31,247 nucleotides of DNA from Neodothiora populina (taxonomy: Eukaryota). The stretch is taken from NCBI RefSeq assembly GCF_041146345.1, contig NW_027191414.1, positions 1,426,001 through 1,457,247 on the forward strand, written 5' to 3'. The notes under the pieces were generated by a model, which saw only the letters and a program-made list of their open reading frames with translations, was not told where the DNA came from and searched no databases. This document shows, in pieces, positions 9,336-31,247 of this stretch. How positions within the stretch are numbered: position 1 is the stretch's first letter; each line of letters starts with the position of its first letter. Position numbers and translations under genes: made by a program.

Positions 9336-10396
9336 ATCGTCGCGTTGGCTGCCCCGGGTCGCGCTGGGATAAGATTGTGTTTGGACGGATAGGGTAGAGA
9401 TCTCCATAGAGAACAATCACACATACTTCTTCTTGCAATAGTGAAGCGAGCCGTGAGCTCTGCAATCGAGAGACATGTGGGCCAGGAATGTTCTACGCGA
9501 ACAACGGGACACGATGTGCGGTACGGTAGGTAGTCGTGAGCTGTCACTGAATCTTCCATGTCACATCGTAAAAATGATCAACGCAGCACGTGCGGTGGAT
9601 TATCAAATATATTAAAAGTTGTTGCTGATTGGTCACATCGTGATCCTGTCTTACCTCACCTTATCTGCATTGCAATTGGGCTACTGCAGTCGTTTCCAAC
9701 CTTGATCGCGTATTAGTGTACGAGTCCTTCCCCAGGAGTGCAGATTCAAACTAAGGTAAGGTAAGTAATTAAGGTAAGGTAATTGAAGGGTACCTTAGTA
9801 AACCAGGGTCCAATTGGCGGCCCGGTACGCACACAAGCCTCCGCCTCCTCATCCGGACAAGCCACATGTGGGTCGGATAGATAGCGCGGCATCTCTAATA
9901 AGAATTTAGGAAGCACCAAGGGTGGGCTCGAGCCCCCCCCCGATCCTCCCAGCCATTCCATCTCGCTGCTCCCATCCGTAACCCACATCAGCATTCTCCG
10001 CAATATCCTCCTCCGCAAGCACTATCTCGCAAAAGCTGAGAGGAGATGCGGGTCTGCACATGCAACATGATCTACGCAGCGTCTATATACGGTAGAGATA
10101 GGAAATTGTTTCGCGAGATGCAGGGGAGTCCCGCTACTCCGCCTTGTGTTAGCAGCGTTGAGAGATAGTCGAGTTGTTCATGTACAGCACCACTCAGCTT
10201 ACAAACCCGGACCGCTATTGCTCGCACCGAGATCCGTGGTCTCGAAGTCTAAGTTTGTTATATACAACTTCACACGAACGGCTCTCTCAGAACTTGGTTA
10301 CAATCACGACTGATTGTGTTTCACGAGTTTTTGTTTTATTGTCTGCTCATCCAGGGACACAGATCTCGATAACCTTCGTCTCACCAACCGCCCGTC

Positions 10397-11853
10397 ATGT
10401 TGAACGACCATGAGAAAGGGCTGGAGGGTACGATCCCTACGGCCGAGATGGTCGGCGACGTTTCTCCAGTCGAAGAAGAGCACAAGCTCATTCACAACGC
10501 TTACCCTGACGGCGGGCGTGAGGCGTGGTTGACTGTCGGGGGAGCCTGGTGCTGCAATTTCGCTTCATTTGGTTGGACCAGCTCCGTCGGTGTTTTCCAG
10601 ACTTACTACTCGCAGAACCAACTTTCAGAGTATTCATCCTCGACAGTGTCATGGATTCCATCTGCAAATTTATTCATGTTGCTCGTTCTGGCACCAGTCT
10701 TTGGCAAACTCTTCGACAGCTACGGTCCTCGTTGGATCATAGTCTTCGGCACCATTGTCGATGTTCTCGGCCTGATGTTTCTTAGCCTCAGTGACAAGTA
10801 CTACCAGATCTTTCTTTCACAGAGTATTTTTTCGGGGATCGGGTCCTGTGCTTTGTTCTATGCTGGAATGAATGCAGTGAGCACGTATTTCCAGAAGAAG
10901 AGAGCCTTGGCCATTGGCATTGTTGCAAGTGCCTCTTCGCTGGGAGGTGTCATTGTGCCGTAAGTGTGGTCCTCGTCCCTCGAAGACTCTTTGCCATCAA
11001 ACATCAATCTCTCTACCTGACAAATAGCTGACTCTGACTGACTCTGGCAGGATCATGTTCAACAACATCATCGATGCTGGCGTGAGTTTCGGATGGACAA
11101 TTCGCATCATTGCCTTTACTTTCCTCGCCTTATTATCTTTCGCCTGCGTCTTCACAAAATCGCGGTTGGATCACAAGCCCAAACCATTGATCATCATGGA
11201 CTTCATTCGCCCTCTGAAAGAAGTGCCGTTCTTGTTTCTCACCGCTGCTGGGTTCTTCGCTTTCTGGGGAATTTTCATACCAAATAACTTCATTGTGCTG
11301 TATGCACAGTCGATTGGGATGTCGGTGAATCTTTCCAACTACCAACTTGTAGTTTTGAACGCTGCAAGGTAAGTTTCTCTCAAAAGAACACCCCACGAAT
11401 ACTATTGAACTGATTTCGTTTGATCACAGTATTTTTGGTCGAGTCGGTTGCGGACTCGTCGCCGACAGATTTGGACGGATCAACACCATCATCATCAATC
11501 TTGTCCTGGTCACCGTTTTCGTCCTCGCTCTATGGTTGATACAAACGGAGGGCACGACTATCGCCTTCAGCACCTTATACGGCTTCGGATCGGGATCCTT
11601 TATATCTCTATTGCCAGCCATCATCGCCCAGGTATCAGACATCCGAGAGATTGGAGTCAGAACCGGTATTGTCTACTTTGTGTCCGCTTTTGCCTGCTTG
11701 ACAGGTAACCCGATCGGTAGCGCACTCATCGAGAACAACTCGCACCCGTATAGATGGATGCAAGTTTTCTCGGCAATCATCATCTTTATCGGAGCGGGGT
11801 TCTTCACCCTGTTGCGCCTTTCGCAGTCGAGGAAACTCACGGCCAGAGTATAG
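10397..11853 (+). CDS. MFS monocarboxylate transporter (MCT/Mch-like), ~434 aa, 3 exons
   Basis: Exons 10397-10959, 11051-11368, 11430-11853. Motifs: YPDGGREAWLTVGGAW, GVFQTYY, SWIPS, GKLFDSYGPR, YYQIFLSQ, YFQKKRALAIGI, GWTIR, SIFGR..G..ADRFGRIN, GNPIGSALI. Confidence 0.94.
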
Positions 11854-16999: not shown

Positions 17000-19443
17000 C
17001 TAGACGATCTTCACCCGCTGAACCGAGCCATGTTCAAAGAAGCGGTCGATCTCTGCACTGGTATCGAAGTCGCTGTCTTCAACGTCGCTTCTTCCTCTGT
17101 AGTCAATGTCAAAGGCATTGAACACCCCAATCCGTCGGTAAGTCGACTTTTCCCCGGTAGACGCGAGCATCAAGCCGCCGCAGCTGGCAAGACGTAAAAA
17201 CGAGACATCGATTGATCGACCTTCAGACTCCGTGACTCGTACATCACACCGGCAATTCAATGGTCCGAGGTCCTCTTGTGAAGAAAAGGCGTGGAAACGA
17301 GGCTCGGGGCTGCTCCAACTATGGTATTTCATGTCGCTGAAATCTGCCTTGTTGGAAAATCGAACACCGCTCATAGTCCTGAGAGCTCCGTCGATGACCA
17401 CATGTGCCTTCCTTACTCGTCCATATGGATTGTTGGGCGCTAATGGCTCTGCGATACACTCGACCACCTCAGCGCATCCTTCTAACGCTGTGTGATTGCC
17501 CCAATTATGCCGCAGGGGTGAATCGTTCTGCCGCTTCTGTGGAACTGTGGGTGGGACACCTATAACCCCTCTGATAGATGCCCACGACCAGCTTGGAGCA
17601 TAGGGGTCCACATTGGACGGTCTCGTCCACTCGTCTGACAGAGCCTGATCCCACATCAATAGCCAGAGTCCAAAGCTACCTCTTGCGCTGTGCACCTTGT
17701 CGAACCAGATTCCAGCCACATGTGTAGTCTGTAAATGCGCGCTGCAGACGCGAAGCTACACCACCGACCGCCCGGAGACGATCGCGGTCATCGGTGAATT
17801 CTCGCTGGGAATAAGCCGAGACAAACTTTTCCCAGCTTTCCTGCAGTTCTAATATATCATGACTGGATGCATCCTTTACCCTGTGAAATATTGCATTTTG
17901 TAATCGTCGATCATGGACTCCATCCAAGTCGGATTCATCATCGGCGAAGTGGTCATTGGAGCTTGGCTGCTCCCTTTGTTTCCTGAACTGGTAGTTGCTC
18001 TGTTCGCACTGCCACACTATAGTATCAGAGCCGAATGCCAGAATGCGAGAAGAGAGGAGACGCTCCTCAAACAGCCACGCACGTCTGTACCCAGGCTCAA
18101 CAAAGAGCTTAAATCGACATATCGGCTGGATTATCAAGTGTCCTTGGGAGCCGTTTGGGCATCGAAAAGGTAGCTGAAAATCCTTGAAATGAGGCTCCAC
18201 GTGAAACGAACTCCACCTAGAAATACGTGAATTGTTCAAGAAGCTTTCCGCGCATGTCGGCGCCTTCGTAGCGCATATCGTCACATACGAGTTTGTGAAT
18301 ATGTCGGCAATACGTGGGATCTGTTGATTCTTATCTTCCTCGTCGTCCTGTACAATACAGAATGAGTCAACCCATAAGTACCTGAGACCGATTTGTCTCG
18401 CGACGTATATGGCGTCTGCAATGCCGGCCTGTAACCGGTGCATCGGTATACTTTGTTTCAATTCATTGATCGTCTCTCTTGTCGCCATAACATTCATACC
18501 CCAGCAGTAGCTCACCGTGGCATAAGTTCCTATGTGTCCGGGAGTGGTTTCGATTATTCGAGAAGTTGTTTCTCCGATCTCAATGACTCTTGGAGGCAAT
18601 CTGACTTTCCCTTTCTTTATGCAGCTAACATGGTCACGATCACATATCTCCAATCGATCTCTAGCAATCTGAAAGACGGTCTCGGATCTAAAGTCGTTAA
18701 CGAAAGGTCTGGTGGTGATGAAGTGCTCAGCGGCATCGCCTATGAGCATTTGATTAACGTAATGTTCTATACTGAGGAACAAGCAACACACCATTCGCAA
18801 CATTTGCTTCAACCCAGAAAGTATGTTCCCATGTCGTCTGATCCATTGGAGGGAGCTCGGACTCGCCGGTCAAAGTCTGATAGTTGAAGTTCACGCCATA
18901 TATTGCTGTCGCGGGCTCACCCAATGAATTTTGTTCGTCGCAGGCGTATGCACGCGCTCTGATGGCAAAATTCATACCCTTCTCCTTGGGCGGGTCATCG
19001 CTTGAGCACGATGAGCGACGGTGTCGGACACTGCCCTGCTCTGACAGACTTGATCCATCATTGGGCATCCCGCTCTCAGGACGACATCCAGCTTTGGCAT
19101 TATCTCGTGGCCCTTGGCTACCATCTGAATCGTCGTCGCTACAAACATACTTGATATCGCTGTTATCGTTATCGGCATCGTCATTACCATCGTCGTCGTC
19201 GTCGTCGTCGTCGTCATCGTTAACGTCGCCGTCGTTGCCGTACTCATCCATCAGAAACCTCCTATGGAAGAGGTCACAAAGCCCACAGCCAGCATCAACA
19301 CCACTTTCGATCTCCTCTAATGACCTATAGAACACTATTCCCTTGGACTGCAAAGGCATGTCGTAACGGAGCCGTGCCAAGCCATCTGGACTAGCAAAGA
19401 TGTCGGAACAAAACTCGCAGATATCACTGTTTCCTTCCGACAT
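17000..19443 (-). pseudogene. HET-domain (heterokaryon incompatibility-like) gene with one frameshift near 17720
   Basis: ATG 19443 (MSEGNSDICEFC...GCGLCDLF). Intron 18740-18791 (GTGTGT..TAG). HET motifs LPPRVI, YATVSYCWG, LRYLWVDSFCIVQDD..DK, IADIFTNSYVTICA, RAWLFEERLLSSR, WQC, DRLRAVGGVA. The frame then breaks between DY and VAGIW, and the new frame continues to YAPSWSWAS and YRRIG. Confidence 0.85.
19190..19219 (+). repeat. (TCG)8 microsatellite encoding poly-Asp in the HET gene
   Basis: Eight perfect TCG units (19190-19213) plus TCA TCG; these read as GAC/GAT codons on the minus strand. Confidence 0.9.
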
Positions 19444-20930
19444 ACTGCAAGATGTTGCAAAGATGGAGACTTTAGTTTTCAGGTAGAAGAGTCGTGACCG
19501 CGGGTCAAATTGCGGGCCCACACTAGTCGATCAAACCTCGCTATCCAAGCTTCGCGATGTCGATAGGGCGTCGATGAATATGGCCGGGAGTAAAGCGAGG
19601 CTCATGTAATTTAGATCACGTGCATGTGATCTTATATACCTCCTGGTATACAAGATCTGATAGATGTGCGTGGAGGGCAGTTAGAACATCGCTGTCATTG
19701 GACGGCGTGTGAAGACGCATGACGATAATCCATCATTCGTCCCGGGACTGAGCGGGTCCACTCCCTGTCATTGCTGAAGTATCCTCTTCCGATGAGACCT
19801 TGTATTCTCGCACCTATGCATACCAAGATGAGGTCTTCGTTATTGAACACATACCTCTTCGCTTGATCTAAGGTCGCTGTTATAAGAACAGTAAAATTAC
19901 CTACAGTAGTCGAGGTACAGTACTATAAAAGACACCATTTCCAAGCTGCTGTGCCTTATCTGCTTATCTCCAGACTACTCTGATGATACTGTAGGTCTCT
20001 GAAGTGCAGGGGTTGAAGTCAAGGTGCTATCACCAACCAGCTCATCGACCTTGTTGTTGTATGGTCATGAATGATTTTAAAAAACATGCAATATCGAAAT
20101 ACTTGTCTTGAGAGTTATGTGGCACGCCTACTGAATGTTCACCGATAAACTATGTCCTCTGTTGAAAGATTTGGCCAAATGCAGAACATGTAACTCCAAC
20201 GGCAACCCTGTCCACACTCCCATGGTTATTGACGCGCTGCATGCTGTTGAGAAATATGTCAAGGTTAGAGCATATATCCCACCCCATATCGCGTAAACCG
20301 ACGTGTATCTAATACAAAGACTGGTTGGGCATGTCCATGTAAATCGTTGCATAGGTACGTGACACGAAGGTTGACAAACGCGTGACCTGCCCCGCCAACG
20401 ATACTCCTTATGCCTGCGGAAGCAACCAAAGCTGTCCTCTGTTCCTTTACGATAACTATCGCCATTTACATTACGTTCTAGAACGCGACGATGACATTTG
20501 CTTGACAATTATTGAGCCTATCAAATCCAATGCTGATTTCGATGTGATAGACTGCTCTTAGTACCTTAGGCGTACCACTCGCCTGTACGATTCGCTGATC
20601 CCAGGTGCACAAGAAAAACTAATCACCGAGTCTGTCAAGCCTCCGAATTCCTTCGGTGCATCATAAAGATGGTACAAGCACGAATCCTTCGAGGGAAAAA
20701 AGCAGCTGGAAATCTGGTTCGGCCCCTGTCTGACGCAATTAGCAATGTCGGCATGGATATATTCTATCTCCGAGAAAAGAATTAGGCGACAGTCCTCCTC
20801 AAGTTTTTAGCTACTGGCCGAGGTTCTTGCGGTATTATAGCTATCGTAGTGTGTCAAGATGGCAGAGACACTTTTCCCAATACTTAGACTGATACCACCT
20901 CTACACTCCGACACATCCACTGCTGCAACA

Positions 20931-21737
20931 ATGTCTTCTCTTGCTGTTTCGGAGCGATATGTTAGTCTCCGCGACCACAATACAGTAGTCCGCGAAAATG
21001 TTGGAACTGAGTCCCAATGATTATTCTCCATGCTCTGTATATGGATAGTAACCTCTTAATGGAAGGTGTTTTCGAGATCTTGGCATCTTCGCAGCACAGG
21101 GATGGGCTGCGAGAAGAGTCATTGCTTATGACCCGCGAGGTCATGGCGAAGCCATGGATGCGCCACCCACGATGTCTGTAGAGCAACTTGCCGATGATCT
21201 CCGCGAGTTGTGCGCAATTGAGAAATTGCCTAGAGTCGATTTGGTGGGAATCTCGTATGGTGGTGCCGTTGCACAATACTTCGTTCTCAGGAATTCAAAC
21301 CTTGTCCGCTCAGCGGTCTTGATGGGGACCATGTCCAAAGGCATCCCAGCTTTTGCCGGCCGTGCAACGATTGCTGAGAAGGTGGGACTTTATTCGAGCC
21401 AACTCTCGCGCGATGGTTTCTTCATAAAAGTCGAAGCCAATCCCAGATGCGTACAGTATGCAAGGTGGCGCCTAGCGTCGACTCGCACGGAGAATTGGGC
21501 TGCTGCATGGAGGGCACTTAGCAAAATGGATAGATTTGAGAAGTTATAGGATATCCGAGTTCCTGTCTTGTGTCTTACTGCGCGACAAGATACTTCCACA
21601 CCGCCAGCGTTTCTGAAGAGCCTTGCCGGCCAGTGTAAGAAGGGTATTCATCGGGAGATTGCTCGTGGAGTGCATTTTCCCCCCCCGAGAGCCCAGATGC
21701 ATGTGCGGGGGTGGTTCTATTAAGTGGATGGGTCTAA
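20931..21737 (+). pseudogene. Alpha/beta-hydrolase pseudogene, 3-oxoadipate enol-lactonase (PcaD)-like
   Basis: Fragments in three frames: MSSLAVSERYVSLRDH (20931), VPMIILHALYMD (21011), RVIAYDPRGHG...LADDL...VDLVGISYGGAVAQ. In-frame TAG at 21547-21549, then DIRVPVLCLTARQDTSTPP...GVHF. The Ser-Asp-His triad is still legible. Confidence 0.8.
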
Positions 21738-22236
21738 GCCGAATGCATCATATAGGGCCAAACGCGCCACGTCGAAATGCGAATCTGCCGAATCAGTGAA
21801 TACCGGGCGAGTATGAAGGTCAGGGGCGAGCGATATTGGGCTTCGCTTGGTGGGCTGAAGATGCAAGGCATACGAGCGTAAGAGTCCTTAGGCTACATAC
21901 TTTTTTCACAGATTATCCCACATCATTAAGTCAATTGCCATAGTCCGAGCTTCCTAAACGCACTAGACAACTCCAAGTTTAGTCCACAAGGCCGAGCTGG
22001 GGCCTGATCGTGGGAGAGACATTATATGGATTGGGCTATAATACAAAGGCTCGTGAGATAACTCCACTACCTTAGGGAAAGGAAAGCTCTCATAATCGCT
22101 ACAGATGTGCTGTGACTATATGCTGTCCCCTCGAAGAGCTACTCAGTAAAGCTCTTAGGCATTGCAAACAAATGAAGATACCAAATTTTTGGGAGTAACC
22201 CGTAATTGACCACTGACAGTGTTCTTGCTCTCCGAA

Positions 22237-23150
22237 TCAAGCAATTGGGTTGTCCTTAGCGAAATAGTACCTCGCGGCAGTAATGAGAATTGCGCCGACC
22301 ATGATAACAGCCGACTGAAGGCAATGCCACCAGTGTAGCCATTGTAGTTGTTGATTAAAGCGCCGGTAATAGGAGTGCCTGCGAGACCGGCGAAACCCAC
22401 CACGAACGTCGACTGACTAATATAGGTACCGATGTACAACAACATCAGAGGACTTTTGGAGGCTAGGAATGAATAATGTACCTTGCTAGGATGGTCTGCG
22501 GTATATGCGACGGTCGACATTATTAACGTGATGATAATACCGCTTGTGGCTCCGAACAGTATAGACAGTACGATAAGTCCAGCTGACGACTCGATAGCGA
22601 GCCAGCAAAACATTAGAATCGAGGAGGCGTAGCAGGCGAAGGTGATGATGTTGAATTGTCCGAGATAATTAGAGAGGCTGCCACCTGACATGCGTCCGAC
22701 AAAGGAGCCAGCATTAATCATGGCGAACAGATATGCAGCTAAACCAGCATCTATGCCGTGAGCTAAGCCATGATTGGCAAGGTAGAAGTAAGGAGTCCAC
22801 AGCCCAAGAACTACCATGAAGAGGGCGGCAACCTGGGATGAGTATTGGGGTTTCTTAAAGGCCTCAAGGAGGATGAATCGACCTTGTCTCCTCATGCTGG
22901 TCGGGCGAATAGCTACGGCTGCTATGGCGAGCAAGAAGAGACTTAGAAAACCACAGGTCCGCTGGGCCCAGCCAAACCTGACGCTCGGGATGAGATTGTT
23001 CAAGATCACCGGGTAGATGATACCACCAATTGGAGAGCCAGTCGAGGCGAATGACATTGCCATGGCTCTCTTTGAGAAGAAGTAATGACTAACGACAGAT
23101 AAGGCAGGCGCAAAGATAAGACCAGACGAGATGCCTAGAATAATCCCTTA
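22237..23150 (-). pseudogene. 5'-truncated MFS monocarboxylate transporter pseudogene
   Basis: Starts mid-protein at *GIILGISSGLIFAPALSVVSHYF.SKRAMAM...GGIIYP, which aligns to the SQSIFSGIG...GGVIVP segment of the intact MCT at 10397. The intron at 22434-22481 has acceptor TAC instead of TAG. A frameshift near 22315 precedes the true end SAVIMVGAILITAARYYFAKDNPIA*. Confidence 0.88.
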
Positions 23151-23162
23151 CCCTAACCCTAG
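23145..23162 (+). repeat. Interstitial degenerate telomere repeat (telomere relic) CCCTTA CCCTAA CCCTAG
   Basis: Three tandem hexamers, each at most one mismatch from CCCTAA. They are opposite in orientation to the terminal TTAGGG tract and sit exactly where MCT homology ends. Confidence 0.7.
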
Positions 23163-26100
23163 TGGGATTTCAGAGCCTGCTGCAACTCCGTGAAGATCTT
23201 TTATTGGCCTCTCTTCACCTTACTCGCATCACCATGATGCAGCCTCCACCTAAGATTCCAGTCATCACTGTATAGTCTCGCCTGTGCTGCGGGTGCTGCT
23301 CTAGTGATATTGACGTCGCATTTGACAGGTTCAACGAGCATAATCGCAGACAATGCTGATTCTACCATCAACCTCTTAGAACGTTGTGTTCCGATGATGG
23401 AAGCTAGATTTTTGCAATGTTCGAACAGCGAACCTTGGTGCCTCACCACAATGTGCGCTACGCACATGCTACTGATGATGCACCTGAAGAAAGAACAGCG
23501 GCAGACCGCCAATTGCTCATGTGCGCAGAGGTATCTACAATTGCATTATACGCGCTACGGGAGACAGTAGCTCACCCGATCAGGTGAAGATGACCCACGG
23601 CCAACACCTAGAGACTCTACGTCTGGTACCAGCGAAGTAAACTTGCAATCTCAGCAGCGAGACGTGTCTCAATACTAGGGATCTTGAAACCATACTCAAG
23701 CTGATGTTCCGCTATCTAGACGCACGTTGCTTACCGACAAGCACAACTGCAAAGTACAGCGATTCCCTCAATGTCACAGTGGCCAGATAGAAACATTCTC
23801 GGTGTGAATATACGTACTGGTTCGGTCCGGTCTCTTGATCTGGGATACTAAATCGTGCCGTAGTCCGAATTTGATTCCTTTGATTTTGATATGGATTCTG
23901 ATAGTATGTGGGGAAGCATGTTGGGATCACAGTAGCAAGGCTTTCTCTCAGCCTAGTTTGTGGATGAGAGTATCGATGCAGGCAACAATAACCAGCTATT
24001 TGTATTGGTGTTGCACGTTCGAATGAGAGAACCCGAATAATGCATCTTGCTCTCTGTTCTAGCAGTCAAGGCTGCGTTGTGCCAAATAGACAAGCGTGAA
24101 AATATACTTTACACAGATGATTTGTCGCGATTCCCACAGCCTTGACGAGTGGTCGTGGTAAAAGCTGTGTGATCACTGGTAGCAATCCTGTTTGTCAGAT
24201 ACATTTTTCACATGCGGTACGTCTAGATATCCACCACTTACAAGAGTAGTCGATAATGTTCAGCTTTCCAAACGTGCAATATCACCTGCGACTACTAAAA
24301 CTTCGCAAGTGTCTATTAGATGTCCGCGGTCCGTCCTAACGCTGCCGTTTCCTGGTGCCATACGACTGTGGGCGGAGTGGGCTACCGTGTTTCTCATAGT
24401 AGCTCTCAGCGAAATTGTTTGCGATTTCAATCCTCCAGGACCAGAATATGAGACTCCACGGAGGTTCATGTGGAGAGACTAGTTGCAGGTCAATCACACA
24501 TGACAGATATATGGATGCAGCCCAGCGTACGATCAAAGGATGTGAAGTTTCTCCGGATATGGTGGTGTGAAGTGATCTTTCAAGCTTGTCAAGTATGCTG
24601 CAAAGGCCCTGGCGGATTGATAATCCCCTTGCTTGGCATCTCCATACTCGCAGCATTATATGATAGCGCATTCTTAGTCCTCGTACTGGACTTCGGGGCT
24701 TGACGTTGAACATGTTCCAATCCCCTCAAGCTCAACGGTAGTATAGAGCATCTTCTGTGCCAGAAAGGTTACATGTTGATCTCTCCTGTCACGCCAAAAC
24801 GCTCACTGCAGCTAATGTGGGGCTCTCATGTACACCAATCGGAGTCACGCTTTCTACTTTACCGTCGGACAGCTTGTAACTATGTCGAGGTTCTGCGACT
24901 GAGACCAACGCAAAAGCATTCCTACTAAGTCTAAATGCACAGCTGGTAGAGCAAGATGCGTTTACAATTGATGATATGTATATCAACGTCGGCATTCCCA
25001 TGACGGTCTCAGCCGGGATCCAACGTAGATGTTGTGATTTATAATCAATCGATCAAGCTGACCATGTCACAAGATGTCCTCAATATCACATGAATACTGC
25101 TTCGCAGTCTGTTTCCACGGACGCGCAGCTCTGTCTACCATCAGTATCGACTGCTATAAGGCGATGTCATGTAACACATGACAAACACGATGACCCCTCG
25201 AATATGCTTCGCAAGCGACTTGATCTTATTTCTCCGGGTCTTGCTTCCCTTCGCAGTGGTTGTCATGAGAGCGGTAATCGTGAGGATGATATGGGATGAT
25301 ATGGTCTTCTGCAAGCGATCACGGTCCACCAGGATTAATCTATCCGTAGAGTATGAGCAACACATTACATACGGCTCCAAGTACTTCGAAAATCTGTTGG
25401 AGGCCTCGACTGTGGTGGTCACCAGTCCGCCGTCATCGCCACTCTGCTTTTTCAGCTGAACAATATCAGTTCGGTAACAGTCTCCGACGCTGTCATCCCT
25501 CTGATGACGCCAGCATACCCGGGTCCGCATCTGTCTTCAATCTCATTTATCGCGTGGAAATATTTGACCAGGCAGGATCGACAATTAGGATCGTTAAAGT
25601 AGTATCGACCCTATAGACCCATCCCGGCTTCCCCTTCCACAGAACTTTAGAGTGGTAATCCGACGCTTTTTCTGTTCTCGAACAGCCTAAGCGGGGGTCA
25701 ACGGAGCCGACTAACATCGAACGTGATTGTATGGTATCTTGAATTGATAACAACGAAAGACAGAGGTGAGTCGGTCGAGTGGATCATGTTCGCCGTCTCC
25801 ATATAGCGGCTAACCACGGCCCCAGGGGTATCGAGATGAAACCAATGGAAAGATCGCAGCTTCAATCTTGACCGGCTGATGCATCCTTGTGCTATGGTCT
25901 TTACCGATCGTGGTGGCTTTTCTATAACTTTTTCCAAACGGATATAGCCTCGAATAACGGATAGAAGGTGTTGATGGCCGATTGTATCGACCCTGGACTC
26001 ACTGTACTGGTTATGTGGCTTGCGATGTTAGTAATATTTGGTTTTGTTCTGATTCGGGCATACTGTATTCCGCTGTTGGCTCGTCACGAACCAAAGTCTT

Positions 26101-26662
26101 CTGATTCAATATTGACTGATTATTCTTGATATGGTTCTAGATAGTGAGATTGCTCTTGAATTATGGGTTGAACTTAAGTAGTCCATCATCTGGAATGCTT
26201 CGCCTTCATTCCCACTGTTGTCTCGTCAGAAAGATAGATGATTTGAGACCATGTCAAGGATTCCGGAGATAGTGAACAGATGAGTGACAATGATCAATTA
26301 GCGTGCAACTGATGAAGACAATAATCGCCGCCTATTTCAACTGGATATTTAGCCATTGATCGTTTTGTGGGGCGTATCTGCAACTGTATGTCACCCTGCA
26401 GAATATGACGCTGACCTCTAAAATTGCTTACGAATCCTTTACTTAGGATCAAGACGAGAAGAGTCACGCCATAGTTAAGCGCATGCAATGATTAGAAATC
26501 AAGAATAAATGAAGTAGTGTTATGTTTGGTGATCTTGTACCTCGACCGATGGATATAAGGGTGTCTATGCGCTGTTACACACTATTGGACGTCCACAACA
26601 GAACCATCCAACAAAGTATCACACAAGAACTACTACGTAGCGAAAAATCATCATCACCAGCA

Positions 26663-27522
26663 ATGGCATCGACTGTCGTTCTAGTTACAGGAGCCAACCG
26701 TGGATTGGGCGAAGGACTAGTGGAAAGATTTCTTGCTCTGCCAAATCACGTATGTCTGCACGCCTAATCAATGCCGTTTGGAGCAAGTCTGAATATACTA
26801 GACTGTCATCGCTGTTTGCCGCGACCCAGCTCACACGACTGCCAAAGCTCTTCTTGACCTGGGTACAGGCGAAGGCAGCAGTCTGGTTATGGCCAAGTGC
26901 GATGCGTCGGTAGAAGAAGATCCGGCCACCCTAGTGAAAGACCTTCAGTCGAAGCATGATATCGACCATCTTGATATCGTCGTCGCTAATGCTGGTATCG
27001 TCAAAGCCTTTCCTCTAGTCAAAGACGTCAAGCGCTCTGAGATTCTTGAGCACATTGAGATAAACGTTTTTGGTGTGCTCTCGCTGTATCAAGCTACGCG
27101 TAGCCTTTTACAGAAGTCGCAAGCACCTCATGGGCCAGTCCTTGCGCTGATGGGATCGACTGCTGGTTCTCTAGAGTATGGTTAATTCCAGTCACTTTGT
27201 CTCATCTGGAAGCTTATCAAATCTCCCGAACAGACGTCAACCTTCAGTCCCAAATGCTGCCTATGGCGCGTCCAAGGCAATGCTACATTGGTATGGCATG
27301 CGCATCAACTCAGACGAGGAGTGGCTAGCCAGTTTTGTCCTGGAGCCTGGCTTTGTGCAAACCGACATGGGAAACTCTTCAGCGCGAGCTTTTGGAATGG
27401 AAAAAGCCATCACGACTGTAGATGACTCGTGTGATGGTATGTTCAAGGTATTGAACACAGCCACCAAAGAACACTATGGTGGAAAGCTCGTAGATTTCAA
27501 TGGCGAGATACAGACCTGGTGA
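26663..27522 (+). CDS. Short-chain dehydrogenase/reductase (Nor-1/AflD-like ketoreductase family), ~249 aa, 3 exons
   Basis: Exons 26663-26749, 26802-27175, 27234-27522. Motifs TGANRGLG, DIVVANAGI, INV, catalytic YGASK, PGFVQTDMGN. Confidence 0.92.
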
Positions 27523-28807
27523 TCGGATCAGGTCATACCTGAAAGGCATATGTTTTCTGCTAGTCATGGGCGTATATGAGTCTATAAACACATGTCGATC
27601 GTGGCAAGCTTACTGTGACAGTGCAGTAGATATTCAACCAAAAGCCAGATATTCAGATGTAAGATAAAAAATTGGTTGAGTCCTAATACAGACGGGGGTC
27701 ATCAATCTGTCGCTGACACAAGTACTTCTCCAGTCAAGACAGTGGTCCTCAAGAATAGATGAAACGGCCAACGGAACGTTGTCTAAAACGACTGTTACGA
27801 ACGTCGAGTGGCCTGCGTCTCACCCCTATCGTCATATTTTCTGATTCTCAATGCACGTTGTGACTTTAGATAGCACCAAGGAGATCCATATGTCGTGTTG
27901 CACGTTCATGCTTGATCCAACCACTGGCCTCAAGAGCCGCCACCAATGTATGTACCATCAGGTAGTGGAGAAAGACGACGTAAATGATATCCAGGAGGAT
28001 TCTATAGAAGCAGCTACCACGCTTCGGCGGACATTCGGTAACCCTCCGGAGTGTTTTCGGTGAATCTAAGAGTCGAGCCAGCGACAGCATTGTCTCATAC
28101 GCTTTTAAAAGGACAACAGCAGCGAAATGCCTGGGGTCGCATCCGTCTTGGCCTCAGGGAAGGCCAGAATTCTCGCCTTGTGAATCTCGCGCTTGAAACG
28201 TACTATAACAATCGCAGTACTGATCCTTGCTTATGCCGGGTTGCATCCTGACAATATTATAGAAGATACAGGACTGCTGTTTGAGCATTTGTATTAAGAT
28301 GTGTGTTCCATTTGACTAGCATAGAAAAATGATTTGTCTCAGTTCAAATTATCTTGGGGCTTTACACCGGTAAATCTTTACAGCTATCGTGATTTGTAAT
28401 GAAGAAGTAATTAGTAGCGTCCATGCATTTGAGGAAAGACATTAGGATCGAGTGTGTTGCACATCTGTATGTCGACTCATTCTTCAGCAGGACGCCTGCA
28501 GTATTCGCTCAGTGTGAGAACCTTTCCCTGAGACTGTCTGTCCGAGATTTGGTTGTCATTACATGACCTGGAAATCTCCGATCTGACATGCGCATAGAAA
28601 ACCTGGAGTATGTTGTCAATCTGATCTAGATGATAAACCTGGTAGAAAGCTCTCTCGCTAGTCCTCGGTCCATGTTGCCTCCCATTGTGTACTTTGATAA
28701 TCACCATTCGACCTAGTTGTCTTCGGCCATCTAGCAGTTCTGTCGACAAGGCCAAAAGGATATTGAACATAATAGATGTGGATCTCGTCCGTATCTTTGG
28801 CTAGCGC

Positions 28808-29920
28808 CTACTGGGCGTTACTCTTGGTGCTTGATACCGTGGTTGATAGATGGCCAATCCCACTGATAGTGTGCTTGCAAAATGTTTGCCCGCCTAGATA
28901 TTGAATCTCAATCGTCGCGTAAGGTGTACCCCTTTGCCCCCCGACATCACACGTATATTTGTAATGAAAGCCCATGTTCACGGTTCCGCCCGAAGGTACC
29001 ATCTGGCAAGCCATGTTGGCCACGCAGGGGTTGCCCTGATCGTAGTACAGGACGGAGATCTGCCGTTTGACACTGTAAAATACCTCCATCGTAGACTTGG
29101 AACGCCACGCCGGTATCGTCGGCACGAACACTGCCCCTGTAAGACGAGGGTACAATATGAGTCCAATCCAGAAGCCCCCGTGCGAGGTTCCAGTTGAATC
29201 CACCTCCATTATATGTGGACCTCCAGTTACATATGTGTCCGTGGCTCGCATCGCAAGCCTCGCCAATGAAATCTGGCGTGCGAGTCTTGGGGTCTTGACC
29301 ACCATAGATATCGGTTGCGAAGATTATAAACTGGTTGTAGCATGATATGCTACCTGTTGTACAGCAGGTCGTTGAATACCAGATCTCCGTGTTGTCTCCA
29401 GCCCAGTGGCATCTCGGATAGGCAAAGTAGGGAGTCACGTATGTCCTGTCGCTCTAGGTTCTGGTCGTGGACTGTTAGTCACCTGTTGGACAGGCGTCTG
29501 TATCACCTCTGGAGACGCAGGTGCCCGATCTCGAAACGACAATCTTTGTATCGTCATTACAGACACAAGACCATCTAGGTAGAGACTGTCATCAGGACAT
29601 TGACAAAACCCATTATTGCAGGAGCCAATCGCTTGAGAAGTACAATCAGATCGTGTCTGACATCTAGCACCACCACGAAGTCGATCAGAATTGCGACAAT
29701 TGTTCGTCACGCAGTCGTTGTTCCGTATGCAGCTTGATCCTTGACTTTGAAATTCGCATGATCCTTGAGAATTGCAAAAATAAGACTGGAAATCTGAAAT
29801 TTGGGTGCACTTAGAACCGTCGTTACCAATAACACATGTGTTGTGCCGGAAGTCGCAAAAACCTACTGCACAATCGGACGAGATAAAACCCGACGCGGCG
29901 GTCCCTATCAACCCGCCTGC
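28808..29920 (-). pseudogene. Degenerate Cys-rich, probably extracellular protein gene lacking its 5' end
   Basis: Repeated C-x3/4-DC-x3-C units (SSDCAVGFC, CIRNNDCVTNNC, CQTRSDCTSQAIGSCNNGFCQC). Frameshift near 29575, in-frame stops at 29475-29477 (TAA) and 29454-29456 (TAG), and another frame change near 29.25-29.3 kb. No start codon or signal peptide. Confidence 0.6.
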
Positions 29921-29922
29921 AG

Positions 29923-30160
29923 GAATCAATCAATATTCTGGCGATATCTCAGTTCCCGGACTAGATGGTGTGTTTCTGAGTATCTCAAAGGACTATGCGG
30001 GTCTTGGATTGCAGACTGGTACCATCAAGGTGAATGGTTTCGCTAATTGGCGATGCTTCGACGGTGGTGACCGACTTTTGTACACTGACACAAACGACAA
30101 CCGTTCAACAGCGATTCGCCCAATGTCTGGTCCGCCATCGATGCCAGCCTACCCAGTATT
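29923..30160 (+). pseudogene. Fragment resembling a small secreted fungal protein
   Basis: GINQYSGDISVPGLDGVFLSISKDYAGLGLQTGTIKVNGFANWRCFDGGDRLLYTDTNDNR is protein-like but has no start or signal peptide and runs into the LINE tail. Resemblance only. Confidence 0.3.
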
Positions 30161-30161
30161 A

Positions 30162-31144
30162 ATTGATTGATTGATTGATTAGTCTATCAAGCTATTCACG
30201 GTCTTATCGTCCGTATAAGCTGTCCAATGTCGTTCCCTCGTTTTCTTATCTGTTGCTTAGCCTTACAGATAATAAAAGAAGAACCTTAACGCTCCTTGTT
30301 CCTTAATCGCCACCCTCCTATTACTGTAGAAGGATAGCTGCCATCCTGGTTATCTATTAAAGAAACCGGACCGTCGCTTTTACTATTTTTAAATTCAGTC
30401 TCTATTACTTAAGCGGGCTATTTACTAGCTAATCTATGTGCATTTCTCTTTTCTTACTATACCCTCTTAGTAGAAAGGATAAATCACCTTATCTGTTTCT
30501 TACTATCTGCTTAAGTTCTACTTATATACTTATTTAGCGTTAGCACTAAAGAAGCACGTAAGCTACTATCTTGTCTTTCTGCCTGTATTCGCATTTACTA
30601 CTTTCCTCGACTTTAATCTTTGCTAAATAAGATTAAAGATAAGTATAGTTTGTTCTTACTTATACAAGAATACCCGCTTGCTCGGAGTTTAGCGCTCTAT
30701 AAAGCTTAAGCGTGTGCTTACTTAAGAAAGCTGCATTTAGCCTCTATGTATATTAACCTTATTTATTTGTTTTTAATGTTTAAGCTTTTAAACGCCTTTA
30801 TTCTGTAAGGTCCTTAATAAGAAGTATTTAAATTACCCCGCTCTTCTTAATTCGGACGTTAAAGTTTTTAAATAGTTTTGTGCCTGTCTCTATAGTAGTT
30901 TAAGTAGCTTAATAAGCACATTCGTTTCCTGCATTTCCTGTATGTGCTAGTACTTAAACAAAGGTTACGTTAAATTTACTCTGTTTAGCGTCTTAAAGCG
31001 TTTAAAGGATGCCTTAAAGTACTTCTCTGCCTCGCTTAGTACCGTTACTCTTTACTATAGCTTAAAGTGCCTCTTAGCTGTTTATAATAATTACATGCTT
31101 ACAATTTAAACTATATAAGGTAAGGATATAATTTAACATTATCT
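30162..31144 (-). mobile_element. RIP-degraded non-LTR (LINE, Tad1-like) retrotransposon 3' fragment: RNase H, CCHC zinc knuckle, 3' UTR and (CAAT)n tail
   Basis: Manual minus-strand translation gives VIIINS*EAL*AI...VTFV*VLAHTGNAGNECAY (compare RNase H consensus I.SDSQ.AL.AI...WVPAH.G..GNE.A, ~31100-30915). It continues GILV*VRTNYTYL*SYLAKI...KCEYRQKDKIVAYVLL*C*R* (compare Q.RTGH..L..YL...C.CG..ETV.H.L..C.RW, ~30690-30535) and R*GDLSFLLRG...VKATVRF. Most differences from consensus are C>T or G>A. (ATTG)4ATT lies at 30162-30180. Confidence 0.88.
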
Positions 31145-31247
31145 TTAGGGTTAGGGTTAGGGTTAGGGTTAGGGTTAGGGTTAGGGTTAGGGTTAGGGTT
31201 AGGGTTAGGGTTAGGGTTAGGGTTAGGGTTAGGGTTAGGGTTAGGGT
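31145..31247 (+). repeat. Telomere, (TTAGGG)17
   Basis: 17 perfect TTAGGG units plus T running to the end of the window. Confidence 0.99.

What the first reader, a model, noticed from the sequence alone, without database searches (positions are those of the whole stretch)
23101..23170. Inward-facing telomere relic exactly at the breakpoint of a decapitated transporter gene
Seen: the MCT pseudogene loses homology at the conserved LxQG motif, where the expected CAA GGG reads TAA GGG and continues on the minus strand as part of CTAGGG TTAGGG TAAGGG. On the + strand this is CCCTAA-type, opposite to the real telomere 8 kb away. Simple telomerase healing of this break would have left TTAGGG on +, so it does not explain the tract. 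Inference: a former chromosome end (the 23.15-31 kb block) was fused by its telomere onto the broken gene, using the gene's own (C/T)AAGGG as microhomology. That means end capture from another chromosome or a terminal inversion. Interstitial telomere relics at rearrangement junctions are known from Pyricularia oryzae subtelomeres. I could not find the missing 5' third of the gene in this window, which favours capture over simple inversion.
Basis: partly seen in the sequence, partly recalled or inferred. Interest (0 to 1): 0.75.

Follow-up and report, generated by a model that had tools for sequence, protein, structure and literature searches.

The report
Telomere-repeat filler at a two-gene deletion
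Near a fungal chromosome end, a roughly 2.7 kb deletion removed the front ends of two neighbouring genes (a transporter and a transcription factor), and the seam was filled with two perfect telomere repeats, which looks like a DNA-repair scar rather than a captured foreign chromosome end.

Summary
The tract is real: 12 perfect telomeric bases (23150-23161), C-strand on +, facing away from the true telomere, exactly where the MCT-type transporter loses homology. A contig of the probable source sample spans it unchanged. Immediately right of the tract lies the 3' quarter of a Zn2Cys6/Fungal_trans transcription-factor gene. That gene is the transporter's normal neighbour: divergent in contig L036, and with consecutive accessions in 4 of 4 other fungal genomes looked up. 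Order and orientation are kept, so the event is an internal deletion (about 2.7 kb by L036) that took both 5' ends and the shared promoter; no match to the lost parts was found in the assembly. The 12 bases fit neither gene's coding pattern well and are best read as telomeric filler added during break repair, like vertebrate short interstitial telomeric sequences. Telomerase healing of the distal end followed by re-joining is the likeliest route; copying from a telomeric G-tail is a close rival. One locus, no intact allele of this species seen: a neat but ordinary repair scar.

The parts
22237..23149 (-). 3' two-thirds of an MCT-type MFS transporter gene (pseudogene; residues ~128-414 of the closest homolog). 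Further lesions: intron acceptor reading AC instead of AG near 22434, frameshift at 22314
   Evidence: 82% identity to P0001; MFS_1 E=4e-14; intron and frameshift regions printed
23145..23149 (+). CCCTT: the transporter's own Gln-Gly codons (AAGGG on -), in register with the filler at 4 of 5 positions
   Evidence: DNA alignments to L035/L036 begin at 23149; codon table
23150..23161 (+). 12-nt perfect telomeric filler, C-strand on + (inward-facing)
   Evidence: not explained by either gene's coding pattern
23162..23935 (+). 3' quarter of a Zn2Cys6/Fungal_trans transcription-factor gene (pseudogene; from about residue 577 of 763 in P0149). Further lesions: intron donor reading CT instead of GT near 23251, stop at 23568, later frame changes. 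The 3' end coordinate is approximate
   Evidence: tblastx to L036; tblastn with 87 homologs, up to 81% identity over 23165-23245; DNA alignment to L036; family Pfam PF04082/PF00172
30141..31137 (.). ~1 kb AT-rich, RIP-like telomere-adjacent repeat; used as control for native ends, absent at the junction
31145..31247 (+). true telomere (TTAGGG)17, contig end

Best explanation
The locus is an internal deletion scar. A conserved, divergently transcribed transporter / transcription-factor pair lost about 2.7 kb (both 5' ends and the promoter between them) after a double-strand break and end loss. The two ends were re-joined in the original order with 12 nt of telomeric repeat between them. SHOWN: retained order and orientation, both truncation points, the 12-nt insert, no match to the lost parts in the assembly. 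INFERRED: that the insert is of telomeric origin (about 0.8). INFERRED, less sure: the route. The polarity requires the G-strand to have grown from the telomere-side (transcription-factor) end. I favour telomerase adding two to three repeats to that end, which was then joined back to the centromere-side end using the transporter's own CCCTT against the new TTAGGG (4 of 5 in register), giving the hybrid third hexamer. It is a neutral scar in two dead genes, with no present function expected.
For: L036 holds both intact genes, divergent; window 23149 matches L036:5031 and window 23162 matches L036:2330, so 2,700 bp of L036 correspond to 12 nt here. Consecutive protein accessions for the two genes in 4 of 4 genomes looked up (Parahypoxylon, Diaporthe, Xylariales sp., Lasiosphaeris); 14 further-or-same pairs share a longest-contig length, read by eye. 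Lost parts: best own-genome matches are 26-41% for the transporter's 5' exon (10 of 10 matches) and 23-35% for the factor's N-terminal part, against 82% for the kept transporter part and a family range of 42% and up. In the factor's frame the insert reads T-L-T-L, found in 1, 53, 1 and 0 of 60 non-redundant homologs; the fewest base changes from any homolog's residues is 3 (median 5), against minima of 0-2 (medians 0-4) for six downstream 4-codon blocks; in the transporter's frame at least 5 changes (81 homologs). Chance 3e-6 to 2e-5 per junction zone. Precedent: in rodents and primates about half of dated telomeric-repeat insertions came with a flanking deletion (PMC2246262, Table 1 passage).
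Against: No intact allele from this species or genus was seen; the yardstick L036 is a distant relative, and orientation was seen only in L036. The insert is only two units, below the four-unit threshold of the vertebrate catalogue. It places a Leu on the near-invariant Leu of BOTH genes (53 of 60 and 36 of 37), so part of it could be native sequence. No seed can be shown on the telomere-side end. The insert ends two bases short of the natural stop of the candidate template, and shows no telomerase-RNA flank. Telomeric 11-mers are not enriched in this genome or in 674 kb of its other subterminal DNA, so there is no sign that this is a frequent route here. The window was picked from a very large scan because it looked telomeric.
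Confidence: 0.55

Rival explanations
1. Same deletion, but no telomerase: the centromere-side 3' end (…CCCTT) paired with a single-stranded telomeric G-tail or a loose telomeric fragment, copied or captured 12 nt, and was then joined to the factor end. This gives the inward polarity directly.
For: The only demonstrable in-register homology is on the transporter side, the side that would prime C-strand copying; a real telomere is 8 kb away. Capture of telomeric fragments is the named alternative in PMC2246262 (section 14).
Against: Needs two template switches; the vertebrate data in PMC2246262 favour telomerase. Nothing in the sequence separates it from the best explanation.
Confidence: 0.22
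2. Same deletion, but the tract is not telomeric: native factor codons plus a 6-nt slippage or templated duplication at the seam resemble the telomere by chance.
For: Reads open in the factor's frame with Leu at the conserved position; the tract is a plain 6-nt tandem; CCCT occurs in the transporter flank; very large scans will turn up rare coincidences.
Against: 3 of the 4 residues occur in at most 1 of 60 homologs; chance 3e-6 to 2e-5 per junction; a 6-nt duplication still has to be a telomere rotation in register with the flank.
Confidence: 0.12
3. A true former end: the pair once lay the other way round, a break in the factor gene was healed on the centromere side as usual, the vestigial telomere then re-captured the transporter's 3' part from a sister copy, and a later larger inversion flipped the region.
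For: Telomere vestiges joined to subterminal sequence by microhomology are shown in Pyricularia TERT knockouts (PMC8381367 section 27); it avoids telomerase acting on an acentric end.
Against: Needs an extra inversion for which I found no evidence; no duplicate of 22000-30140 elsewhere in the assembly.
Confidence: 0.08
4. One reading: a native end of another chromosome (or this end, inverted) was fused by its telomere onto the broken transporter.
For: Polarity and AAGGG microhomology fit; the 5' third of the gene is missing from the window and the assembly.
Against: The right-hand DNA is the transporter's own conserved neighbour in normal orientation, itself cut mid-exon at the tract; no telomere-adjacent element beside the tract.
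Confidence: 0.03

Closest known systems
Short interstitial telomeric sequences inserted at double-strand breaks in mammals (Nergadze et al. 2007, PMC2246262; seen: passages, sections 6 and 14)
   Same: Perfect TTAGGG units at a site empty in orthologs, flanks syntenic on both sides, accompanied by deletion, bases in register at a break edge.
   Different: Fungal; two units rather than four or more; deletion of kilobases; the visible in-register bases are on the side that telomerase would not have extended; no telomerase-RNA flank.
Interstitial telomere relics of Pyricularia oryzae (Rahnama et al. 2021, PMC8381367; seen: abstract, passages, sections 25 and 27)
   Same: Filamentous fungus, subterminal position, two-unit motif counted as a candidate relic, associated with a rearrangement.
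   Different: Most relics there face the way a former telomere would and are explained by adding new sequence to a failed end; bi-repeats are enriched there (mean 119 per genome against ~36 expected). Here the tract faces inward, joins two originally neighbouring sequences, and no enrichment is seen.
TERC-ITS (telomerase-RNA fragments co-inserted with repeats; PMC2246262)
   Same: Would prove telomerase involvement at a repaired break.
   Different: No base of the junction matches the sequence flanking the candidate template; not a TERC-ITS.
De novo telomere addition at induced breaks in Cryptococcus (bioRxiv 10.1101/809848; seen: passages)
   Same: Shows telomerase acts on fresh fungal breaks (3 of 32 ends) without a fixed seed motif.
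   Different: Those ends stay as telomeres; no re-joining with a short insert was described in the passages seen.

Membership tests
Break-repair short ITS (vertebrate type) | Telomeric repeats at a site where orthologs lack them | tested here: met
   Absent from L035/L036 DNA and not encodable by 60 factor or 81 transporter homologs with fewer than 3 or 5 changes; only distant relatives available
Break-repair short ITS (vertebrate type) | Both flanks map to one ancestral locus in the same order | tested here: met
   L036; consecutive accessions in 4 of 4 genomes
Break-repair short ITS (vertebrate type) | Break-site modification (deletion, addition or duplication) | tested here: met
   2,700 bp of L036 replaced by 12 nt; lost parts not found in the assembly
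Break-repair short ITS (vertebrate type) | Four or more units (catalogue threshold) | tested here: not met
   Two perfect units plus a hybrid third; threshold. So it works like one but falls outside that catalogue's definition
Break-repair short ITS (vertebrate type) | Bases in register at the 3' end extended by telomerase | tested here: inconclusive
   Needs a close intact allele; in-register AGGG is seen only on the other side
TERC-ITS | Telomerase-RNA-derived bases beside the repeats | tested here: not met
   Candidate RNA locus L115 (below the family cut-off); longest shared word with the junction is 8 nt, the template itself or chance
Internalised native telomere (Pyricularia-type relic / end capture) | Sequence on the C-strand side is a former telomere-adjacent sequence, and new synteny or a duplication is created | tested here: not met
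   That side is mid-exon of the neighbour gene; no duplicate in the assembly; old synteny kept
Internalised native telomere (Pyricularia-type relic / end capture) | Strains exist with this sequence directly at a telomere | not testable with these tools
   Only low-depth contig pieces from other samples; none reaches the junction

The most novel reading that the evidence does not exclude
In this fungus telomerase can cap the acentric, telomere-side end of a subtelomeric break and the capped end can be ligated back, so that telomerase acts as a filler polymerase in gene-deleting repair. Short inward-facing bi-repeats at deletion seams would then be an overlooked, countable signature of subtelomeric gene loss in filamentous fungi, the fungal counterpart of vertebrate short ITS.
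Probability: 0.3. Interest if true: 0.55.

Novelty: new member of a known kind. Interest (0 to 1): 0.3.

Why it matters
If right, it is a clean fungal example of telomeric DNA used as filler in break repair, and it shows how inward-facing short telomere motifs can arise without any chromosome-end fusion: reading such motifs as former ends can be wrong, and a synteny check decides. It also records a one-step loss of a conserved regulator-transporter pair. As a single neutral scar it does not reveal a new system; its value is as a template for a survey of strain-to-strain deletion junctions.

Tried and rejected
Intron at the Gln-Gly motif: none in L035 or L036. Assembly artefact: X1 contig spans the seam. 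Translocated 5' parts: own-genome hits L037 and L038 are other genes at 26-32% identity; these searches score only the best candidates, so absence is not proven. Loose ends in run X4 at 23826 and 24044: the piece ends fall on CCGG and ATGCAT, and a second piece shared by X4 and X7 ends on CTGCAG and CCGG (enzyme names recalled), so I read them as ligation products of a restriction-based library, not rearrangements. X3 has pieces on both sides (22902-23107; 23577-24006) but none bridging; not used as evidence. No RNA holder listed. Hairpin from the 6-bp inverted flanks: z = -0.14 and -0.48, rejected. RIP as the cause of the stop at 23148-23150: the surrounding kilobases show no RIP signature; a single change cannot be excluded. 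A word search for closer factor homologs found none; the HMMER search found only 33-59% relatives, so no close intact allele. Atlas search of the 28811-29323 protein gave only sub-0.9 leads, ignored. Earlier-findings look-ups by place and one by words were empty. Papers: 10.64898/2026.10.05.756768 (passages, nothing relevant); PMC5388398 (abstract and outline only). Six literature searches listed no paper that, by title or start of abstract, describes a telomeric filler in a synteny-preserving deletion in a filamentous fungus; the library lacks most subscription papers and I read no supplements, including the relic position tables of PMC8381367, which may hold inward-facing cases.

Full report
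Setting. The window is the last 31 kb of contig C15 of a 24-Mb, 18-contig fungal assembly, ending in (TTAGGG)17 at 31145-31247. The closest named homolog of the gene in question is from Meristemomyces frigidus (82% identity), followed by Tolypocladium and Aureobasidium proteins at 69-74%.

Observation. On + the bases 23145-23162 read CCCTTA CCCTAA CCCTAG. The perfect telomeric run is 12 nt, 23150-23161, the only interstitial run of 10 nt or more in the window, and opposite in polarity to the terminal array. The minus-strand MFS transporter gene (MFS_1) matches full-length homologs only from residue about 128 on. DNA alignments with two intact relatives from metagenomes both begin at 23149, and neither relative has an intron there. 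A contig of run X1, which may be the source sample, crosses the place without a difference. By itself a 12-mer like this is not rare: 1.1e-7 per position by a Markov model, about 7e-7 from control hexamers, and the genome holds 4 interstitial copies of the pattern searched against 9 of its reversed control. What is unlikely (3e-6 to 2e-5 for a 30-nt zone) is finding it exactly at a junction.

What lies to the right. Contig L036 carries an intact relative of the transporter, and 2.2-2.5 kb upstream of it, DNA that matches window 23187-23458 in the same relative orientation. Translated comparison shows this is a transcription-factor gene (Fungal_trans; family members carry Zn2Cys6) on the window's + strand. 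Against 87 homologs the match is strong from 23162-23165 on (up to 81% over 27 residues) and runs to about 23920. About three quarters of the factor, with its DNA-binding and Fungal_trans domains, is missing. In L036 the two genes are divergent. Four of four further genome pairs that I looked up have the two proteins as consecutive accessions; I chose those four because tags or contig lengths already suggested adjacency, so this shows a conserved pair, not its frequency. Window 23149 corresponds to L036:5031 and 23162 to L036:2330, so 2,700 bp of the relative are replaced by 12 nt here. Searches of the assembly for the lost parts gave only paralogs: 26-41% for the transporter's 5' exon (10 matches), 23-35% for the factor's N-terminal part (L037 and L038 are other genes), E of 6e-4 or worse for the zinc-cluster exon. 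The DNA 22000-30140 has no second copy. These searches are not exhaustive.

Is the tract native sequence? In the factor's frame it reads Thr-Leu-Thr-Leu; 1, 53, 1 and 0 of 60 non-redundant homologs have those residues; at least 3 and typically 5 base changes separate any homolog from it, against typical values of 0-4 in six control blocks just downstream. In the transporter's frame it needs at least 5 changes (81 homologs). Against this: it puts a Leu on a near-invariant Leu in both genes, and all homologs are distant. I put telomeric origin at about 0.8.

Mechanism. The G-rich strand runs from the factor side toward the transporter side. Telomerase would therefore have extended the telomere-side, acentric end. 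The new G-tail can pair with the transporter end, whose Gln-Gly codons give CCCTT, 4 of 5 in register; keeping the transporter's base at the mismatch gives the hybrid third hexamer. This is inference. The same product arises if the transporter end primed C-strand copying on an existing telomeric tail or a loose fragment was captured. A candidate telomerase RNA was found on C2 (Rfam RF02462, E=1.2e-4, below the cut-off) with a 9-nt template-like stretch about 1.1 kb upstream of the match; its flanks do not appear at the junction, and the insert stops two bases before the template boundary, so this test gave no support to telomerase. Both remnants have further lesions (transporter: acceptor and frameshift; factor: donor, stop, frame changes), present also in X1, so the genes have been dead for some time; whether the deletion came first cannot be told.

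Controls from other ends. In 674 kb from the other contig ends (some stretches overlap; small contigs included; this end excluded) there are 3 interstitial runs of 10-11 nt, all outward-facing, none of 12 nt, against 28 for four control unit pairs. So this genome shows no excess of relics, unlike Pyricularia (PMC8381367 section 25). A ~1 kb RIP-like element sits at or near 16 of 36 contig ends by my count, and not beside the tract; as many ends lack it, this is only moderate evidence.

Comparison. The anatomy is that of vertebrate short interstitial telomeric sequences, about half of which came with a deletion (PMC2246262), but it has two units, not the four of that catalogue, and no RNA-derived flank. 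It works like one; strict membership is not met. It differs from Pyricularia relics, most of which face outward and arise when sequence is added to a failed end. Telomerase is known to act on fresh fungal breaks (10.1101/809848). Six searches listed no clear filamentous-fungus case of this exact anatomy, but the library is incomplete and supplements were not read. Earlier notes of this scan describe head-to-head telomere scars in rotifers; they are unchecked analogies and did not change my reading.

Verdict. Observation confirmed; capture or inversion not supported; deletion with retained order about 0.95; telomeric filler about 0.8; telomerase-then-rejoin 0.55 overall. New member of a known kind, interest 0.3.

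Noticed in passing
window 30141-31137; copies: ~1 kb RIP-like repeat next to the telomere with an (ATTG)n run at its inner edge; 13 near-full-length other copies at 84-89% identity. Its minus-strand translation recalls the 3' end of a non-LTR retrotransposon (recalled resemblance, not tested).
   Followed up: partly
G000:C4:1170819-1171812 and G000:C16:1399066-1399818: Internal copies of that element, 71 kb and 22 kb from the right ends; the C16 copy is inverted, the C4 copy follows another MCT gene. Neither carries a telomeric run of 10 nt or more. Better candidates for internalised ends than this finding.
   Followed up: partly
G000:C2:481583-482817 (minus; L115): Candidate telomerase RNA: weak Rfam RF02462 match (below cut-off) with a 9-nt template-like stretch about 1.1 kb upstream.
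   Followed up: partly
window 21052-21700 (+): Alpha/beta-hydrolase gene with an in-frame stop near 21547 and no clear 5' part; probably a third pseudogene. The C-run near 21679 is 3 nt shorter in the X1 contig.
   Followed up: partly
window 10373-11850 (+): A second, apparently intact MCT-type transporter gene, about 41% identical to the broken gene's homolog in the N-terminal part.
   Followed up: no
window 17003-19530 (-): HET-domain gene spread over three frames; introns or frameshifts not resolved; contains an Asp-rich (TCG)n tract at 19190-19235.
   Followed up: no
window 28811-29929 (-): Cys-rich, probably secreted protein with no Pfam match and no credible Atlas match, right beside the telomere-adjacent repeat.
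   Followed up: partly
G000:C16:688967 (L044): 14-nt perfect telomeric run inside a longer degenerate G-rich stretch, mid-chromosome; flanks not examined for a junction.
   Followed up: no
G000:C16:8149-9228: Another subterminal MCT-type gene with three TAG stops.
   Followed up: no
G000:C13 right end (L092): Terminal array interrupted three times by a variant unit with G for A.
   Followed up: no
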